From the NCBI GenBank assembly GCA_035527075.1, contig DATLBE010000007.1, positions 463 through 64,462 of the forward strand: 64,000 nucleotides of DNA. The letters are read 5' to 3'. The translations under genes and the position numbers were made by a program. This DNA comes from Nevskiaceae bacterium. GTDB taxonomy: Bacteria > Patescibacteriota > Microgenomatia > PFEM01. Positions 38,814-45,835 of this stretch are shown in pieces. Within the stretch, counting starts at the first letter, position 1. Each line of letters opens with the position of its first letter. A model generated the notes under the pieces. The model was not told where the DNA came from. It saw only the letters and a list, made by a program, of their open reading frames with translations, and ran no database searches.

Positions 38814-40212
38814 TTTTTAACTTTTCTATTATCATCTTTGAGATCAAATAGGATTTACCAGCGCCAAAAACTATCACCACATCGCCGCTTTCAGCCTGGC
38901 GAGCAAGACCGTCCGCCAGATCCTCAAAATCTTTGATGTATTTGGCTTTGGCGCCAATCTTTTGAACCAAATCTTCGACTCTAATTTTGCCTGTGTCTTT
39001 TTCTCTGCCAGCATAAATTTTGGTGACAATGACTCTATCTGCCAAATTTAAAGAAGAAGCAAAACCATTTAAAAAAAGATGAAGCCGAGAAAACTGATGG
39101 GGCTCAAAAACCGCCCAAATTCTTGACTGGGGATATTTTTGTTTAGCTGCTTTTAAAGTGGCTGCAACGGCTGTTGGGTGAACAGCATAATCATCAAAAA
39201 CTTTCACTCCCTTAGCCTCTCCAATTAAATCAAAACGTCTGCCCAAACCACCAAATTGACTTAAAACCCGGTTGATTTTTTCTGGTTTAATTTTCAAAAA
39301 AATCGCGCAAGCAATGACGCCCAGCGCATTAGCAACATTATGAATACCAGGAATCTTTAATTGAAACTCCTTTCGGCCAAAATCATTCGTCACCGTAAAT
39401 CGGGTGAACTCAGGCTTGATTTCCTTGACTGTGGCTTGATATTCAGTCACAAAAGGAAAAGCAAAGCTTTTGTTTATTAAGTAACCGATTATTTTTACTT
39501 GATTTTTTATCAACCATGGTTTTAATTCTTGTAAAAGTGTCTGAATTCCTTGACTTTCTTCATTAACAATCAATATTTTCGGCTTTTGAACTTTTCGGAC
39601 AAATTTTTTGAAGGCGTCACAAAATTGGCCAAAATCTTTGAAAAATTCAGGATGGTCCATCTCAATATTGTTAATAATGATGATTGAAGGTGAGTAGGAT
39701 AAAAAGTTGTAGTTAAACTCATCAGCTTCACAAACAAAATATTTTGATTTGCCTGCTCTGACCGTTGCTTGCCATTCGGGAACAATGGCACCGACTTCAA
39801 CAATCGGATCTAACCCGCTTGCTTCTAAAACCAAGCCTGTCAGAGCTGTAGTGGTTGATTTGCCGTGAGTGCCGGCAATAGCAATCACAAACTTGTTTTT
39901 TTGTAAGTACTTAGCCATAAACTCTTGCCAGGTCATCAAAATACCTCGTTTTTTGGCTTCGACAATTTCTGGATGGTCAGGATTAACATCCAAAACAGCA
40001 GGAGTGACAGCTAAAATATCAACGCCTTTAAGATGACTGACGTCATGACCAACTAAAGATTTAATGCCGGCTTTGGCAAGTGACTTCAGATAATAAGTGT
40101 CTTTAGCCAAATCACAACCTGTGACTTGAAAGCCTTGATTTTTGGCCAAAATCGCTACTCCCGCTATTCCACTACCACCTATACCCATAAAATGAACGTG
40201 AGTTTTCTTCAT
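38806..40212 (-). CDS. murC: UDP-N-acetylmuramate--L-alanine ligase MurC
   Basis: MurC N-terminus (VHFMGIGGSGIAGVA) and P-loop (IAGTHGKSTTT). Confidence 0.9.
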   Translation of the reverse strand: MKKTHVHFMGIGGSGIAGVAILAKNQGFQVTGCDLAKDTYYLKSLAKAGIKSLVGHDVSHLKGVDILAVTPAVLDVNPDHPEIVEAKKRGILMTWQEFMAKYLQKNKFVIAIAGTHGKSTTTALTGLVLEASGLDPIVEVGAIVPEWQATVRAGKSKYFVCEADEFNYNFLSYSPSIIIINNIEMDHPEFFKDFGQFCDAFKKFVRKVQKPKILIVNEESQGIQTLLQELKPWLIKNQVKIIGYLINKSFAFPFVTEYQATVKEIKPEFTRFTVTNDFGRKEFQLKIPGIHNVANALGVIACAIFLKIKPEKINRVLSQFGGLGRRFDLIGEAKGVKVFDDYAVHPTAVAATLKAAKQKYPQSRIWAVFEPHQFSRLHLFLNGFASSLNLADRVIVTKIYAGREKDTGKIRVEDLVQKIGAKAKYIKDFEDLADGLARQAESGDVVIVFGAGKSYLISKMIIEKLKND

Positions 40213-41435
40213 TTTTTCTTTTTTAATTTTTCTTTTAAAGCTTTTCTGGCTTCTTTGTGGTCACTCCAAGGATATTCAGTTGTCCCAAAACACATCGATT
40301 GCTCGTGGCCCTTGCCGCAAATGACAACAATGTCGCTTTTTTTGGCTAATTTTTGAATAGCAAACTTGATCGCTTCACTTCGATCTGGTATCCGAAAGAA
40401 ATTTTTACCCTCAACACCACCGGCTTTTTGACAACCTCGAGCTATCTGGTTAATGATTTTATCAACGTCTTCTGTTCTTGGATCTTCTGCTGTTAAAACA
40501 CTCACATCAGCTAACCGACTCGCAATTTTACCCATTATTGGTCGTTTCCGAGCATCTCTTAAACCGGCACAACCAAAAACAGCAATTAGTCTGTGATGTT
40601 TTGACTCTCTGAGGGTTTTTAAGACATTTTTTAAACCATTTGAGGTGTGGGCAAAATCCACAATCACTTGAAAATCTTGGCCTTCGTCTATTTTTTCCAT
40701 TCTGCCTTTGACTCCCTTAAAAGCAGTTATTGTCCTTCTAATTTTTTCGGCCGGAATTTCCAATGATGAGGTGGCGGCGATCGCCGCTAAACAATTATAT
40801 TGGTTGTATTCTCCTGGAAGAGAGGTTTTAAATTGAAATTTTTTAGGGTTAAAATCAGCTGTGTTTTTAATTCCGTAGGTGACGAGTTGCGTTTGTTTAT
40901 TTTTTTTGGTTTTGGTTAAAAGAGTTTGGTAAGATCGGTCGTCTCGGTTCAAAACAGCGATTTTTACATTTTCAAAAAGCCTGGCTTTCGCCTGAAGATA
41001 ATTTTGATAAGTGCCATGATAATCAAGATGCTCATGGGTAACATTGGTAATCACTCCCATCAAAAAATTGATGCCAAAAACCCGGTGCTGGTCTAAACCA
41101 TGGGAAGTCACTTCCAAAACAAGATATTCATAATCTTGGTCAGCGATTTTTTTTAAAAAGGCTTGTAATTTCCAAGGATGAGGAGAGGTAACATGGAGGC
41201 CGGCCGAAACTGTCGAGATCAAAGCCACTTTTTTTTCAACCTGAAGCAAAATTTGGTAAATCAAGGTGGCGGTCGTAGTTTTACCGTCAGTTCCAGTGAC
41301 GCCGATAATTTTTAAATGGCGTCCGGGGTAACGATAAGTAAAGGCGGCTAAAAAAGCCACCGGCAGGTGGAAGAAAGAATTGACCATCCAGTTAGGAATC
41401 AAATGACGGATTTTCGACCACCAGTTTTTAAACAT
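40209..41435 (-). CDS. murE: UDP-MurNAc-L-Ala-D-Glu--diamino acid ligase MurE (compact)
   Basis: P-loop IIGVTGTDGKTTT and a Mur ligase central and C-terminal domains. Short N-terminal domain. Confidence 0.8.
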   Translation of the reverse strand: MFKNWWSKIRHLIPNWMVNSFFHLPVAFLAAFTYRYPGRHLKIIGVTGTDGKTTTATLIYQILLQVEKKVALISTVSAGLHVTSPHPWKLQAFLKKIADQDYEYLVLEVTSHGLDQHRVFGINFLMGVITNVTHEHLDYHGTYQNYLQAKARLFENVKIAVLNRDDRSYQTLLTKTKKNKQTQLVTYGIKNTADFNPKKFQFKTSLPGEYNQYNCLAAIAATSSLEIPAEKIRRTITAFKGVKGRMEKIDEGQDFQVIVDFAHTSNGLKNVLKTLRESKHHRLIAVFGCAGLRDARKRPIMGKIASRLADVSVLTAEDPRTEDVDKIINQIARGCQKAGGVEGKNFFRIPDRSEAIKFAIQKLAKKSDIVVICGKGHEQSMCFGTTEYPWSDHKEARKALKEKLKKKK

Positions 41436-41471
41436 CGCTCTAATTATACTTCGCCGTTAGCGTCAAAACCA

Positions 41472-43178
41472 CTATCCAGGTTGGATACCGTAATAGGTGA
41501 AAAGTTCTTTGGCAATGTCAAACCACAAGGGCGCGGCTGTTTCTGATCCCCACGGTGAGGAAGTTGGTTCCCGAAGAGTAACCAGCATGATAAATTTCGG
41601 TTCGTCAGCTGGCGCAAAACCAATAAAAGAAGCAATGGTTTTTTCTTCATCATAATGGCCAGCCACCGGAATTTGAGCTGTCCCGGTTTTGCCTGCAATT
41701 CGAAAGCCTTTGGGTTTTGCCCATTTGGCCTCACCATTCTCAACCGCATTAACCATGATTTCTGTCATTAAGCGCGCCGTCGCCGGATTAATGACTTGCC
41801 TCTCAAACTGAGGTTGAACCCCTATCACTTCTTGATCATAAACCACTTTTTGAACCACATAAGGTTTCATTAAACGGCCTTGGTTAGCAATTGCCCCAAC
41901 CGCTTTCACCATTTGAATCGGGGTGATTGCAACTCCTTGACCAAAAGCGGCTGTGGCTAAATCAATTAATCCCCACTCATTTGCTGGTCGAAGCGGTGGA
42001 GATGTCTCGTCTTCAAGATCAATACCAGCTGGTTGACCTAAACCAAATTTTTTAAGGTAGGCGACCATTTTTTCAATTCCCAACTTTTCAGCCACAAAAA
42101 TCATGCCGATATTATCAGATTTTTGAATCACCTCAACCATTGTTAATTGTGGATGATACTCGTCATTCCAAGTTCGAATAGTGTAGTCAGCAATTCGCCT
42201 GGGACCTGAGCATTGGTCACAGCGCGTCTCTGGTTCCACCACTCCTTCATTTAAAGCCGCCGCCATCACTAAAACTTTAAAAGTCGAGCCGGGCTCATAA
42301 GAAGAAGCCACAACCGGGTTGGGATAAAATTCTTTGTCAAAAGCAAAATACCTGGCTGGGTCATAACCAGGTAAAGAAACGGTGCCTAAAATTGCGCCCG
42401 TGCCCGGTTCGGCCACAACCACTAGACCACTAGCCGCACCATAGCGTTTAAGACTCCGACGAAGCTCTTCCTCAATAATAAATTGAACAGTTCGATCAAT
42501 CGTGGTCACCAAACTGCGACCGTCTTTACCCCCTTCCCCTTTAACCTCGCCCACCAAAATTGGTTTCCCTGAAGCGTCTTTTTCCCGGCGAAGCACACCT
42601 GATCTGCCTTTCAATTCAAGTTCATAGTAACCCTCAAGACCAAAATAGCCCTTGTCTCGACCGTTAATATCCGAACCTACAAAACCAAGTAAATGGGCGG
42701 CCCCCGACCCTTCGGGGTAACTTCTTTTTGGTTCTTCCTCAAAACCGAGACCTTCAATTTGCAAATTTTCCAAAATTTTTTTCGTTTCCCGAGAAAGACG
42801 ATGTTTAAGGGGCACCCAAACCAAATCTTGACGTTTTAACCGGGCTTCAAGCATTTGCTCGGTTTCCAAAAGAAGCTCCTTTTTCGAAACCAAAAAAGGA
42901 GCAATTTGGGCGGCAATTTCCTCAGGCTTGTCTTTTAAATCAGGCAAGGAGGCAAAAGCCAAAAAAGCTTCTTCGTTGGTCACCAAAGGAAAACCATCGC
43001 GAGCCAAAATTTTGCCTCTTCGGGCCGGAATTTCAAACGAAACCCAATGCTGACCTTCAGCGGCAGCTGATAACTCAGGAGAATTTAAAATTTGCCAATA
43101 AAACAATCGGCCAGCCACCAAAAAGCCACTGATTAGAAAAAAACCAAACAAAAGATTGACTCTCGTGTTTAGACTCAC
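41472..43178 (-). CDS. ftsI: Penicillin-binding protein (class B transpeptidase, FtsI/PBP2-like)
   Basis: N-terminal TM, dimerisation domain, and transpeptidase motifs STFK, SDN (KSDNIGM) and KTGT. Confidence 0.9.
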   Translation of the reverse strand: MSLNTRVNLLFGFFLISGFLVAGRLFYWQILNSPELSAAAEGQHWVSFEIPARRGKILARDGFPLVTNEEAFLAFASLPDLKDKPEEIAAQIAPFLVSKKELLLETEQMLEARLKRQDLVWVPLKHRLSRETKKILENLQIEGLGFEEEPKRSYPEGSGAAHLLGFVGSDINGRDKGYFGLEGYYELELKGRSGVLRREKDASGKPILVGEVKGEGGKDGRSLVTTIDRTVQFIIEEELRRSLKRYGAASGLVVVAEPGTGAILGTVSLPGYDPARYFAFDKEFYPNPVVASSYEPGSTFKVLVMAAALNEGVVEPETRCDQCSGPRRIADYTIRTWNDEYHPQLTMVEVIQKSDNIGMIFVAEKLGIEKMVAYLKKFGLGQPAGIDLEDETSPPLRPANEWGLIDLATAAFGQGVAITPIQMVKAVGAIANQGRLMKPYVVQKVVYDQEVIGVQPQFERQVINPATARLMTEIMVNAVENGEAKWAKPKGFRIAGKTGTAQIPVAGHYDEEKTIASFIGFAPADEPKFIMLVTLREPTSSPWGSETAAPLWFDIAKELFTYYGIQPG

Positions 43179-43183
43179 GGTGA

Positions 43184-43495
43184 TTATTTTAGAGCCACGG
43201 GAACCTGTGGAGTAAGATGTAAAACTCGAGTTGTTCTTAAAAAGCCTCCATTTTCCGCTTCCAAAGAAATTTTACTCAAAGAAGAAAGTTTACTTGTTTG
43301 TTCAATTAAAGCTCGATTTTCCTCTTCCAAACGGGCTGTTTCTTGCTCTAACTGACGAATCTCCTCACCAGTGTTAGCTAATTGATGAGAAATTGCCAGT
43401 TGAGTTAAGGCTAAAACCAAAACAAAACTGACAATAATATAAATCAATTTTCGCACCCTAGAAATGTCTGATAATTTTGTTTTATTTTTCATCAA
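43184..43495 (-). CDS. ftsL: FtsL/DivIC-like septation protein (TM plus coiled coil)
   Basis: 103 aa with a single TM followed by a leucine-zipper-like coiled coil. Position between rsmH and ftsI. Confidence 0.5.
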   Translation of the reverse strand: MMKNKTKLSDISRVRKLIYIIVSFVLVLALTQLAISHQLANTGEEIRQLEQETARLEEENRALIEQTSKLSSLSKISLEAENGGFLRTTRVLHLTPQVPVALK

Positions 43496-44372
43496 TTTTC
43501 TCTCCTGCTCTTAACTTAGCACTGCGGCTGCGAGGATTTTTCCCAACTTCTTCTTGTGTTGGCCTGACCGGTTTTTTGGTCAAAATTCGCAGCTCGCCGG
43601 CCTCGTCTTTTTTTCGAAAAAATTGTTTGACAATTCTGTCCTCGCCTGAATGAAAACTAATCACTACCAATCTGCCGCCCAACTTTAACAAGTCTAAAGC
43701 CTGAGGCAAAGCATTTTTTAAATTGTTCAGCTCATCATTAACCGCTATCCGCAAAGCCTGAAAGCAACGCGTGGCCGGATGCAGACGGATAAACCCTCTT
43801 TTTGATCTCACCTTAGCAATAATCTCGGCCAGCTCGTTGCTGGCTTTAATTGGCTTTAATCGACGGGCGCGGCAAATAGCCTCAGCAATGCGCCGAGAAT
43901 AGTGCTCCTGACCCAATTTAGAAAAAAGCTCATCCAACTCTCCTTTATTTAAACCATTCACCAAATCTGCCGCGGTCACCGAAAGGCTAGGATCCATTCT
44001 CATGTCCAAAGGGCCTTCAAGTTTAAAAGAAAACCCTCGTTTGGGAGTCTCCAGCTGATAAGTAGAAACCCCAAGGTCAAAAAGAATCCCAGCGACGCCG
44101 GTATATTTGTTTTTCTCGGCAATTTTTTTTAAATGAACAAAATTTCCCTGGACAAGCCGCCAGGAAGTAGGGCAGGCAGTGGGTAAACACCTCCCGGCGG
44201 CCTTGATTGCCTCAGGGTCACAATCGATACCTAAAATTTTTCCACCTAAGCTTAAAATCTGCTGCGCGTGTCCTCCGCCACCAATGGTGGCGTCAATGTA
44301 TTTCTCCCCTCGAATAACTTTCAAATAATTAATAATTTCTTTTAAAAGTACTGGCTTATGAAACCTTGCCAT
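43482..44372 (-). CDS. rsmH: 16S rRNA (cytosine1402-N4)-methyltransferase RsmH (MraW)
   Basis: HKPVLLKEIINYL start, SAM motif DATIGGGGHA and dcw position. Confidence 0.92.
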   Translation of the reverse strand: MARFHKPVLLKEIINYLKVIRGEKYIDATIGGGGHAQQILSLGGKILGIDCDPEAIKAAGRCLPTACPTSWRLVQGNFVHLKKIAEKNKYTGVAGILFDLGVSTYQLETPKRGFSFKLEGPLDMRMDPSLSVTAADLVNGLNKGELDELFSKLGQEHYSRRIAEAICRARRLKPIKASNELAEIIAKVRSKRGFIRLHPATRCFQALRIAVNDELNNLKNALPQALDLLKLGGRLVVISFHSGEDRIVKQFFRKKDEAGELRILTKKPVRPTQEEVGKNPRSRSAKLRAGEKIDEK

Positions 44373-44503: not shown

Positions 44504-44908
44504 TTAAATATTTTCTTTGGCAATTTTATTAGAGTAAGTCTCCCAAACTGTCTTATTCCAAATCTCGAAATGATCGCCCGCGCCAATCAGGGTCAATTTA
44601 TCCGTAACACCAGCATATTTCATCATTGCCTCAGGAACTACAAATCTTCCTTGTGAGTCTAAAGTCACTCTTTCGGCATTTGTACAAAGTTTTCTGCGAA
44701 GCATTCGTCCTTGCCCATCGGAAATTGGTCGGGAAAGATCAGCGGCGGTAACCTGCTCCCATTTTTCTTCTTCGAAACCAAAAATACAATCTTCCATTCC
44801 AACAGATAAAATAAGTTGATTGCCTTTTATTTCTCTTCTCAATTTGCTGGGTAAGGCTAGCCTGTTTTTGTCAATTAGGGTTGGTTGGTAAGTTCCCAAA
44901 AGCATCAA
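44504..44908 (-). CDS. mraZ: Transcriptional regulator MraZ
   Basis: Tandem MraZ/SpoVT-AbrB-like halves (DKNRLALP ... DSQGRFVVP). The likely true start is the ATG at 44905. Confidence 0.85.
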   Translation of the reverse strand: MMLLGTYQPTLIDKNRLALPSKLRREIKGNQLILSVGMEDCIFGFEEEKWEQVTAADLSRPISDGQGRMLRRKLCTNAERVTLDSQGRFVVPEAMMKYAGVTDKLTLIGAGDHFEIWNKTVWETYSNKIAKENI

Positions 44909-44914
44909 AATTCT

Positions 44915-44976
44915 CCTTTTTATACCATTTTATTCCATTTTCACCCATTTTGAACCAATTTGATATTGCTTGTCAA
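44915..44976 (-). promoter_or_regulatory. mraZ promoter (TTGACA-N18-CAAAAT) with three 10-bp-phased direct repeats (CCATTTT on the plus strand), putative MraZ operator
   Basis: -35 at 44976-44971, -10 at 44952-44947. CCATTTT occurs at 44925-44931, 44935-44941 and 44945-44951 at an exact 10-bp period, overlapping the -10 and 5'UTR. SD AAGGAG at 44920-44915. Confidence 0.45.
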
Positions 44977-45025
44977 GAGGCAAAAAAAGATAAACAAAAC
45001 TACAAAATTAGCTTAGAAAAAGAAA

Positions 45026-45835
45026 TTATTCAGTAGGAGTTTTTGTGGTGGCTATTGCCATAAAAGCGGCTAATTGGCCGACTGAGGCGGAAAGAGTTTT
45101 GCCGTCAGTTTTAAAGTCTTCTTCTTCAACTTGCCACGCTCTCCCATCCCAAGAATAAAGGGCAACATCGGGATTTTCTTCGATTAGAGCCAAATTAACA
45201 ATTCCACTTTTAATCGTTTTGCTGCCCGCGGTGAAAACACCGTAAATCTCACTGACCGGTTGGCCCTCAATCTCTCTAGGCAAGCCAACAGTGGGCATCG
45301 TTAAATAAAAAGTGGTCGGAGAAATTGTGCCTTCAAGTTGAAAATTATTATCAATTGACGTTAAAATTTTATCTCCTTGCTGAAGATGAAAATCAGCAAT
45401 AAATTTTCTCACCCCATCTGAGCCGCGGAAACGCAAAGTTAAAGTACCTTCAGTGACATCCTCATCATATTTACAAACGTCGCGGGAGCAAGTGCCTAAA
45501 AGCAGTTTTCTTTCAACTGCCGCCTCACCATCAAGATCGATCGAGCCAATCACGCCTCGAGAAAGACCGGCAGAAAGATAAACTAATTCATACTCAATCG
45601 TTTGGGCATTTTTAACTCTTGAAATCTCTAAAGTTAATTCTCGGCCATCAGTTCTGGGAGTGAGAGTCACAAAAGGTCGTTCTTCTAAAGTTGTTTTAAT
45701 CAGAACTCCTTCTGATTCAGGCGTGACTGGTTCTTCTTCAGCTGGCTTTTTGCTTTTGAAAATAAAAAAACCACCAACACCTAAAATGGTTAAGACAACC
45801 AAAATAATCAAAAAAGTGGTTAAGTTTTTTTTCAT
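45026..45835 (-). CDS. Hypothetical membrane-anchored extracytoplasmic protein
   Basis: 269 aa with an N-terminal TM followed by a beta-rich domain. Confidence 0.45.
   Translation of the reverse strand: MKKNLTTFLIILVVLTILGVGGFFIFKSKKPAEEEPVTPESEGVLIKTTLEERPFVTLTPRTDGRELTLEISRVKNAQTIEYELVYLSAGLSRGVIGSIDLDGEAAVERKLLLGTCSRDVCKYDEDVTEGTLTLRFRGSDGVRKFIADFHLQQGDKILTSIDNNFQLEGTISPTTFYLTMPTVGLPREIEGQPVSEIYGVFTAGSKTIKSGIVNLALIEENPDVALYSWDGRAWQVEEEDFKTDGKTLSASVGQLAAFMAIATTKTPTE

What the first reader, a model, noticed from the sequence alone, without database searches (positions are those of the whole stretch)
44915..44976. Probable MraZ operator: three direct repeats at exact 10-bp phasing in the mraZ promoter
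CCATTTT occurs at 44925, 44935 and 44945 (plus strand), i.e. AAAATGG x3 on the coding strand. The repeats overlap the -10 box (CAAAAT, 44952-44947) and the 5'UTR just upstream of the SD. MraZ proteins are known to autoregulate the dcw operon by binding a series of direct repeats spaced one helical turn apart. The motif here differs from the E. coli TGGGN and Mycoplasma AAAGTG repeats, so it would define the lineage-specific MraZ box.
Basis: partly seen in the sequence, partly recalled or inferred. Interest (0 to 1): 0.5.

Follow-up and report, generated by a model that had tools for sequence, protein, structure and literature searches.

The report
MraZ operator in mraZ promoter
The phased AAAATGG repeats are real and are almost certainly where the cell-division regulator MraZ binds to shut off its own operon; this is a known kind of switch, seen here in the one-letter sequence variant typical of the tiny-genome CPR bacteria.

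Summary
AAAATGG occurs three times at exact 10-bp spacing (44951-44945, 44941-44935, 44931-44925, minus strand) between a TTGACA -35 box and the mraZ start codon. The array is in fact longer. An in-phase AAATTGG lies upstream (44961-44955), and an in-phase AAAAAGG lies downstream (44921-44915) and doubles as the Shine-Dalgarno sequence.

The phased triple is expected 0.04 times per window by chance. A weight matrix built only from relatives picks this site as by far the best array in the 64 kb.

In 39 of 67 distinct mraZ upstream regions there are at least 3 exactly phased [A/G]TG[G/T] cores, against 1 of 2964 control tiles. These regions come from Gottesmanbacteria, other CPR lineages, and several other phyla.

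Published cryo-EM work shows that MraZ residues K13, R15 and R86 read the TG(T/G) core. All three are conserved in the window's MraZ.

The box is not an unrelated motif. It differs from the Mycoplasma AAAGTGG by one base, and an 84%-identical relative has AAAGTGG as its middle box. A at that position is the consensus among the 48 CPR-like relatives compared, and it tracks loss of the canonical first DxKxR motif.

Binding and repression are inferred, not shown. This is a new member of a known kind, of modest interest.

The parts
44971..44976 (-). -35 hexamer TTGACA of the mraZ/dcw promoter
   Evidence: Promoter scan. TTGAC(A) is present at a fixed helical register upstream of the boxes in nearly all related loci.
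44955..44961 (-). Box 1, imperfect: AAATTGG, inside the -35/-10 spacer, in phase with the exact repeats
   Evidence: The TGG core is kept as AGATTGG in the 84% relative L032. The best 4-unit weight-matrix array, 44923-44962, includes it (36.4 bits against 3.7 for the next unrelated site). Many CPR-like loci have a full AAAATGG at this position, 18-19 nt from TTGAC.
44947..44952 (-). -10 hexamer CAAAAT; five of its six bases belong to box 2
   Evidence: TTGACA-18-CAAAAT, 10 of 12. Gottesmanbacteria relatives have CATTAT/ATTATGG at the equivalent place.
44945..44951 (-). Box 2: AAAATGG (exact), overlapping the -10
44935..44941 (-). Box 3: AAAATGG (exact), at or near the predicted transcription start
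   Evidence: The same box is AAAGTGG in L032. The start-site position is inferred from the -10 only.
44925..44931 (-). Box 4: AAAATGG (exact), in the 5' untranslated region
   Evidence: Identical in L032.
44915..44921 (-). In-phase pseudo-box AAAAAGG (core T replaced by A), overlapping the Shine-Dalgarno AGGAG (44917-44913)
   Evidence: Conserved as AAAAAGGAG in L032 and ATAAAGGAG in L033. Other Gottesmanbacteria carry a true fourth box (AAAGTGT, AAAATGT or ATTATGT) at this phase position. Whether MraZ contacts it cannot be told from sequence.
44504..44905 (-). mraZ coding sequence (133 aa from ATG 44905; stop codon included)
   Evidence: Pfam MraZ 1.7e-29. Matches solved MraZ structures 1N0E and 9SX6/9QLG at E 1e-17 to 1e-18, aligned from Met1. 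The equivalents of K13, R15, D82 and R86 are present; D11 is replaced by Ile.
40209..44372 (-). Downstream genes of the presumed regulated operon: rsmH/mraW 43482-44372, ftsL 43184-43495, class B PBP 41472-43178, Mur ligase 40209-41435
   Evidence: ORF list and Pfam hits. Co-transcription is inferred from same-strand, tightly packed genes.

Best explanation
The repeats are the operator of the MraZ protein encoded immediately downstream.

- **Binding.** Successive subunits of an MraZ oligomer each place their AbrB-like 'cradle' (K13, R15 and the R86 equivalent) into the major groove at one TGG core. The cores are 10 bp apart, so they lie on one face of the helix. Three perfect boxes and one or two weaker flanking boxes would be occupied cooperatively.
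- **Effect.** Box 1 lies in the -35/-10 spacer. Box 2 shares five bases with the -10 hexamer. Box 3 covers the predicted start site. [quoted passage not shown]
- **Shown here.** The sequence arrangement, its statistical rarity, its conservation in orthologous promoters, its uniqueness in the 64-kb window, and conservation of the DNA-contacting residues.
- **Inferred.** Actual binding, the number of boxes occupied, the transcription start site, and the sign of regulation.
For: - **Position.** The repeats lie directly upstream of a bona fide mraZ at the head of a dcw cluster.
- **Rarity.** The phased triple is expected 0.04 times per window and occurs only here.
- **Independent matrix.** A weight matrix was built from 144 boxes in 48 CPR-like relatives, with the window and L031 excluded. 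It scores 44923-44952 at 28.8 bits for 3 units (next unrelated site 9.6). It scores 44923-44962 at 36.4 bits for 4 units (next unrelated site 3.7).
- **Conservation.** 39 of 67 distinct mraZ upstream regions have at least 3 exactly phased [AG]TG[GT] cores, against 1 of 2964 control tiles from the same loci. Most of the remainder show degenerate arrays by eye.
- **Footprint.** Against the 84% relative L032, the stretch from -35 to ATG has 8 mismatches in 78 nt by my count from the alignment (about 90% identity). The rest of the intergenic region is full of indels. The substitutions fall in the spacers or are the A/G change in box 3.
- **Which bases are invariant.** The T and G of the core are at 0.99 each, while the A-rich flank is at 0.5-0.74. 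This fits base-specific reading.
- **Literature.** MraZ binds three or four GTG(G/T) boxes with 6-nt spacers. K13, R15 and R86 contact the TG(T/G) bases. Four subunits engage four boxes, and mutating boxes relieves repression (PMC12957436). In B. subtilis the repeats are required for repression and the triple repeat is unique in the genome (bioRxiv 10.1101/2022.02.09.479790).
- **Protein.** The window's MraZ keeps the K13, R15, D82 and R86 equivalents.
Against: - There is no binding or expression data for this organism or any CPR bacterium. No paper linking MraZ to CPR terms appeared among the 12 top-ranked results.
- The first base of the published GTG(G/T) core is A here.
- The first Asp of the N-terminal DXXXR motif (D11, which positions R15 in M. 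genitalium) is Ile in this protein. Recognition may therefore differ in detail.
- The -10 hexamer CAAAAT is only a 4-of-6 match, and the start site is not mapped.
- MraZ was reported to act as an activator when overexpressed in M. gallisepticum (stated in PMC12957436), so the sign of regulation is not certain.
- The AAAAAGG unit may be nothing more than the ribosome-binding site.
Confidence: 0.85

Rival explanations
1. It is an MraZ operator, but it works as an activating or architectural site rather than as a repressor. MraZ bound on one face would recruit or stabilise RNA polymerase at a weak -10.
For: The -10 hexamer is weak (CAAAAT). MraZ was reported as an activator on overexpression in M. 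gallisepticum (PMC12957436). The box array keeps a constant helical register relative to TTGAC across lineages: 18/19, 28/29 or 39/40 nt.
Against: The boxes overlap the -10 and the predicted start site, which is a classical occlusion geometry. Repression through the boxes was shown in B. subtilis and M. genitalium reporter assays and is reported for E. coli.
Confidence: 0.08
2. The repeats are phased A-tracts that give intrinsically curved DNA, or a set of overlapping -10-like hexamers. Either would tune promoter strength without a dedicated binding protein.
For: Each unit carries an A3-A5 run at helical phasing. NAAAAT resembles a -10, and the scan finds a second promoter-like combination inside the array, TTCAAA-16-TAAAAT.
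Against: Across relatives the invariant positions are the T and G of the core (0.99). The A-run is not invariant (0.5-0.74) and is often broken by TpA steps, as in ATTATGG and TAGATGG. Non-CPR loci have the same phased cores with a G in the run. The arrangement is tied specifically to mraZ: 1 of 2964 control tiles in equally AT-rich flanks shows it.
Confidence: 0.04
3. It is the binding site of some other regulator, or an RNA-level element in the 5' untranslated region (the repeats contain AUG triplets), and is unrelated to MraZ.
For: Boxes 3 and 4 and the pseudo-box would be transcribed. No experiment links MraZ to them here.
Against: There is no Rfam match in 44700-45200. The predicted leader folds no better than shuffles (z = -0.06). 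Boxes 1 and 2 lie upstream of any plausible start site. The motif matches the published MraZ box in core, spacing and position.
Confidence: 0.02
4. It is a chance or slippage-derived 10-bp tandem duplication with no function.
For: Tandem Repeats Finder reports two short period-10 arrays.
Against: The spacers differ between units (GTG, AAT, TAT) while the heptamers are identical. The arrangement recurs in distant relatives whose spacers and flanks are unrelated.
Confidence: 0.01

Closest known systems
Mycoplasma MraZ boxes: AAAGTG[T/G] direct repeats (M. gallisepticum, Fisunov et al. 2016, as cited in PMC8475190) and the four-box M. genitalium operator AAAGTGT-N3 x3 + AAAGTGG (PMC12957436)
   Same: - A 7-nt A-rich box with 3-nt spacers, giving a 10-bp period.
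- Three or four boxes directly upstream of mraZ, overlapping the start-site region.
- The TG(G/T) core read by K13, R15 and R86, all present in the window's protein.
- One occurrence only in the sequence examined.
   Different: - The fourth base is A instead of G (AAAATGG against AAAGTGG).
- The array starts inside the -35/-10 spacer and covers the -10.
- The protein has Ile in place of D11.
- Nothing here has been tested biochemically.
Bacillus subtilis MraZ binding repeats (MBRs): three GTGG[A/T]G motifs with 4-nt spacers in Pmra (White et al., bioRxiv 10.1101/2022.02.09.479790)
   Same: [quoted passage not shown]
   Different: The core is GTGG there and ATGG here. The window's boxes have the A-rich 5' flank typical of AT-rich genomes.
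Escherichia coli MraZ direct repeats: TGGGN x3 at 10-bp period
   Same: Three direct repeats one helical turn apart upstream of mraZ, with repression of the dcw promoter.
   Different: The core sequence is written differently (TGGG against ATGG). I could not check the promoter geometry because the paper was unavailable.

Membership tests
MraZ operator (MraZ boxes / MBRs) | Located immediately upstream of mraZ, the first gene of a dcw cluster | tested here: met
   The boxes end 20 nt before the mraZ ATG. The gene order mraZ-rsmH-ftsL-PBP-Mur ligase was confirmed by Pfam.
MraZ operator (MraZ boxes / MBRs) | Three or more direct repeats spaced one helical turn (10 bp) apart | tested here: met
   Three exact and two imperfect units at exactly 10-bp spacing.
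MraZ operator (MraZ boxes / MBRs) | Core sequence GTG(G/T), of which TG(G/T) is contacted by K13, R15 and R86 (PMC12957436) | tested here: inconclusive
   The TGG part is present in boxes 1-4. The first G is A (boxes 2-4) or T (box 1). A at this position is the consensus in 48 CPR-like relatives (A 0.74, G 0.13), and L032 has G in one box. So this is a tolerated variant of the published consensus rather than a strict match.
MraZ operator (MraZ boxes / MBRs) | Arrangement conserved in orthologous mraZ promoters | tested here: met
   39 of 67 distinct upstream regions have at least 3 exactly phased cores, against 1 of 2964 controls. The close relatives L031, L032 and L033 keep the boxes.
MraZ operator (MraZ boxes / MBRs) | Cognate MraZ carries the DNA-contacting residues of both DXXXR motifs | tested here: inconclusive
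   The K13, R15, D82 and R86 equivalents are present. D11 of the first motif is Ile, with an Asp one position later (IDKNR).
MraZ operator (MraZ boxes / MBRs) | Specific binding by MraZ and box-dependent regulation of the promoter | not testable with these tools
   Needs gel-shift or footprinting assays and a reporter assay.

The most novel reading that the evidence does not exclude
CPR (Patescibacteria) MraZ proteins and their operators may have co-evolved to a distinct specificity class. The canonical first DxKxR motif was lost or remodelled. The box core switched from GTGG to ATGG. The array moved one or two helical turns upstream, so that a box fuses with the -10 hexamer.

Supporting counts:
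- All 17 loci with canonical DxKxR have mostly GTGG boxes, and none of the 43 loci without it do.
- Among the CPR-like loci with at least 3 phased cores, G-containing boxes occur in 10 of 17 that keep K13 and 3 of 23 that lack it.

This would fit the structural report that Lys13 can reach the first G of the box. It would give a natural series for working out how the AbrB-like cradle reads DNA. The correlation is not corrected for shared ancestry and could simply reflect CPR against non-CPR descent and AT-rich drift.
Probability: 0.35. Interest if true: 0.45.

Novelty: new member of a known kind. Interest (0 to 1): 0.3.

Why it matters
MraZ is one of the few transcription factors kept in very small genomes, and CPR bacteria have almost no characterised regulation. 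A clear, conserved operator gives a concrete regulatory circuit that can be tested directly: autorepression of the cell-division and cell-wall operon in an uncultured lineage. It also supplies a weight matrix (consensus AAAAATGG[T/A]G at 10-bp phase) for annotating the mraZ promoter in CPR-like genomes. The wider A-for-G variant and its link to altered DNA-binding residues is a modest but usable lead on specificity in the AbrB/MraZ fold. It does not change the current understanding of MraZ.

Tried and rejected
- **RNA element.** I considered an RNA element in the leader. There is no Rfam hit at E up to 1, and the leader folds no better than shuffled sequence. Rejected.
- **Slippage repeat.** Tandem Repeats Finder gives only two weak period-10 rows. 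Spacers differ between units while boxes are identical, and distant relatives share the arrangement. Rejected.
- **Other sites in the window.** The relatives' weight matrix finds none. The next best 3-unit array scores 9.6 bits against 28.8. The exact AAATGG-N4 triple occurs in only one of the 86 fetched loci, L031, which is near-identical to the window. So no wider regulon is visible, but only 64 kb of this genome was available.
- **Eraso et al. 2014.** I tried to read it for the E. coli promoter geometry. The paper is not held (after a malformed query).
- **Literature on MraZ in CPR.** The 12 top-ranked results of a search for MraZ together with CPR, Patescibacteria or Microgenomates contained none that mention MraZ. 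This is a limited library, so it is not proof of absence.
- **Failed script.** My first co-variation script used a wrong regular expression and classified every locus as non-canonical. It was corrected.

Full report
**What is in the sequence.**
Read on the minus (coding) strand, the 117-bp intergenic region upstream of the ORF at 44504-44908 contains these elements in order:

| Element | Coordinates |
|---|---|
| TTGACA (-35) | 44976-44971 |
| AAATTGG | 44961-44955 |
| AAAATGG | 44951-44945 |
| AAAATGG | 44941-44935 |
| AAAATGG | 44931-44925 |
| AAAAAGG | 44921-44915 |
| AGGAG (Shine-Dalgarno) | 44917-44913 |
| TTG | 44908 |
| ATG | 44905 |

The ORF is MraZ (Pfam 1.7e-29). It is followed by rsmH/mraW, an FtsL-like protein, a class B penicillin-binding protein and a Mur ligase. 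Upstream on the same strand are an unannotated 269-aa protein, a class II aminoacyl-tRNA synthetase and RecO.

The alignment to solved Mycoplasma MraZ structures begins at the second codon. The real start is therefore most likely the ATG at 44905, 7 nt after GGAG.

**Is it more than chance?**
The heptamer alone is not enriched: 33 copies in 64 kb against 36.6 expected. The phased triple with up to three mismatches is expected 0.04 times per window, and the largest count in 100 shuffles was 1. Its only hits are three overlapping registers of this site. Those registers also reveal the two imperfect in-phase units on either side.

**Comparative evidence.**
The closest genome-collection relatives of the protein are Candidatus Gottesmanbacteria and other Microgenomates/Patescibacteria, at 50-56% identity. 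So the window comes from a CPR bacterium. A metagenome scan added a near-identical contig and two closer relatives:

| Locus | Protein identity | Boxes |
|---|---|---|
| L031 | 99% | same promoter as the window |
| L032 | 84% | AGATTGG AAAATGG AAAGTGG AAAATGG |
| L033 | 62% | ATTATGG AAAATGT TAAATGG, then ATAAAGGAG |

- **Footprint against L032.** Between the window and L032, the stretch from -35 to ATG has 8 mismatches in 78 nt by my count from the alignment (about 90% identity). The rest of the intergenic region is riddled with indels. The changes fall in spacers, apart from the A-to-G change in box 3.
- **Wider set.** Almost every mraZ upstream region retrieved shows TTGAC(A) followed by three to five A-rich boxes with a TG(G/T) core at 10-bp spacing. 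This covers CPR lineages, Anaerolineae, Bacilli, Desulfobacterota and Acidobacteria.
- **Enrichment.** 39 of 67 distinct upstream regions carry at least three exactly phased [AG]TG[GT] cores, and 19 carry at least four. Only 1 of 2964 equally sized control tiles from the same loci carries three, and none carries four. Most loci that fail this strict test still have visibly degenerate arrays.
- **Weight matrix.** I built a matrix from 144 boxes of 48 CPR-like relatives, excluding the window and L031. Its consensus is AAAAATGG[T/A]G. T and G of the core are at 0.99, the third core base is G at 0.80, and the base before the core is A 0.74, G 0.13, T 0.13.
- **Scan of the window.** Scanned over both strands, the matrix scores 44923-44952 at 28.8 bits for three units (next unrelated site 9.6). 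It scores 44923-44962 at 36.4 bits for four units (next unrelated site 3.7). The site is therefore unique in the window and matches a model it did not contribute to.

**What the literature says.**
MraZ binds conserved repeats upstream of its own promoter. [quoted passage not shown]

Cryo-EM structures show four subunits of an opened MraZ oligomer. Each inserts a cradle-like motif into the major groove of one box, and Lys13, Arg15 and Arg86 contact the TG(T/G) bases. Mutating boxes relieves repression stepwise (PMC12957436).

In B. subtilis, three GTGG[A/T]G repeats with 4-nt spacers are required for repression, and the triple repeat is unique in the genome (bioRxiv 10.1101/2022.02.09.479790). 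The only occurrence of the Mollicutes motif AAAGTG[T/G] in M. genitalium is at the mraZ promoter (PMC8475190).

The window's MraZ has the equivalents of K13, R15, D82 and R86. D11 is Ile, followed by Asp (IDKNR).

**Most likely mechanism.**
Successive MraZ subunits bind the TGG cores on one face of the helix. They cover the -35/-10 spacer (box 1), the -10 (box 2, which shares five of its bases with CAAAAT), the predicted start site (box 3) and the early leader (box 4). This blocks RNA polymerase and autoregulates the operon negatively.

The anatomy, rarity, conservation and residue conservation are shown here. Binding, stoichiometry, start site and sign of regulation are inferred. The AAAAAGG unit sits where other Gottesmanbacteria have a true fourth box, but here and in L032 and L033 it is also the ribosome-binding site. 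I cannot say whether MraZ touches it.

**Rival explanations.**
- **RNA element.** Unlikely. There is no Rfam hit, the leader folds no better than shuffles (z = -0.06), and two boxes lie upstream of any plausible start.
- **Intrinsic curvature from phased A-tracts.** This may help binding, but it is not the conserved feature. The invariant bases are the T and G of the core, and the A-runs are often interrupted in relatives.
- **Slippage-derived repeat.** Excluded by the differing spacers and the deep conservation.
- **Activation rather than repression.** Cannot be excluded from sequence. The geometry argues against it.

**How 'lineage-specific' is the box?**
AAAATGG differs from AAAGTGG at one position, outside the TG(G/T) triplet that carries the main contacts, and the 84% relative uses AAAGTGG for one box.

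The A is nevertheless systematic in the CPR-like loci compared.
- All 17 loci whose MraZ has the canonical first motif DxKxR (all non-CPR) have mostly GTGG boxes.
- None of the 43 loci lacking it (all CPR-like) do, and A dominates there.
- Among the CPR-like loci with at least three phased cores, G-containing boxes are seen in 10 of 17 that retain K13 and in 3 of 23 that do not (Fisher p = 0.005, uncorrected for phylogeny).
- The distance from TTGAC to the first core is 18/19 or 28/29 nt in CPR-like loci and mostly 39/40 nt in the canonical ones. The CPR operators therefore sit one or two helical turns further upstream, on the same face, and fuse a box with the -10.

These patterns fit the structural remark that Lys13 can reach the first G of a box. 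They are confounded by shared ancestry and should be treated as a lead. No paper linking MraZ with CPR terms appeared among the 12 top-ranked results.

**Verdict.**
The interpretation as an MraZ operator is well supported by comparative data and by a published structural mechanism. The element is a new member of a known kind, carrying the A-for-G box variant that is the consensus among its CPR-like relatives. Interest is modest: it is a clean, testable regulatory site in a poorly understood lineage, and it does not challenge anything known.

Noticed in passing
L014, L015, L016, L018, L071, L074 (about 40 nt upstream of mraZ through its start codon): In these Patescibacteria loci the last MraZ box (TATATGG, TTAATGG or CGTATGG) contains the mraZ ATG start codon itself. 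It lies only about 8 nt after a -10-like hexamer. This suggests a leaderless mraZ mRNA whose start codon is part of the operator.
   Followed up: no
L007, L008, L053 (about 60 nt upstream of mraZ): These MraZ homologues have LLAGGQ in place of the first DxKxR motif, so both K13 and R15 are lost. Their upstream repeats are TTAGTGA/CTAGTGT-type boxes rather than ATGG or GTGG. This may be a further specificity variant.
   Followed up: no
L011:2898-3003, L048:1742-1910, L054:1897-2000, L059:1035-1156, L075:1283-1434: In Curtissbacteria-like loci the MraZ boxes lie 100-160 nt upstream of mraZ and are followed by a conserved leader.
- The leader reads ...ACTCCTAAGAAAGC...GCCCTT(TT)GGAGTTA.CTATCTTGCA...GGTTGTAAGGG.
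- It has two invariant predicted helices, ACUCC/GGAGU and CUUGCA/UGUAAG.
- L048 and L075 carry variable hairpin insertions between the arms of the second helix.
- There is no Rfam match, and no compensatory changes appear in the five sequences.
- It may be an undescribed 5'-UTR structure.
   Followed up: partly
L010, L046, L047, L056, L061, L067 (mraZ promoter): A subgroup with a one-residue insertion in the first motif (F-x-K-x-K-N-R) shows an ordered series of different boxes after TTGACA: (GA/AT)TTTGG, then AAAATGT or AGAATGG, then AAAGTGG. The boxes are not identical to each other.
   Followed up: no
window 44903-44908: The mechanical ORF call starts mraZ at TTG 44908. The ATG at 44905 aligns with Met1 of solved MraZ proteins and has better spacing from the Shine-Dalgarno sequence, so the protein is probably 133 aa, not 134.
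   Followed up: yes
window 45026-45835 (minus strand): The gene directly upstream of the mraZ promoter encodes a 269-aa protein with a hydrophobic N-terminus and no Pfam match. It is conserved in the same position in L032. No terminator-like site was found on its strand before the mraZ promoter, so read-through into the dcw operon is possible.
   Followed up: no
L001, L007, L012, L013, L015, L017, L018 (record titles): Several TPA metagenome-assembled genomes titled 'uncultured Gammaproteobacteria bacterium' carry MraZ proteins and promoters that group with Gottesmanbacteria and other Patescibacteria. The titles look like mislabels.
   Followed up: no
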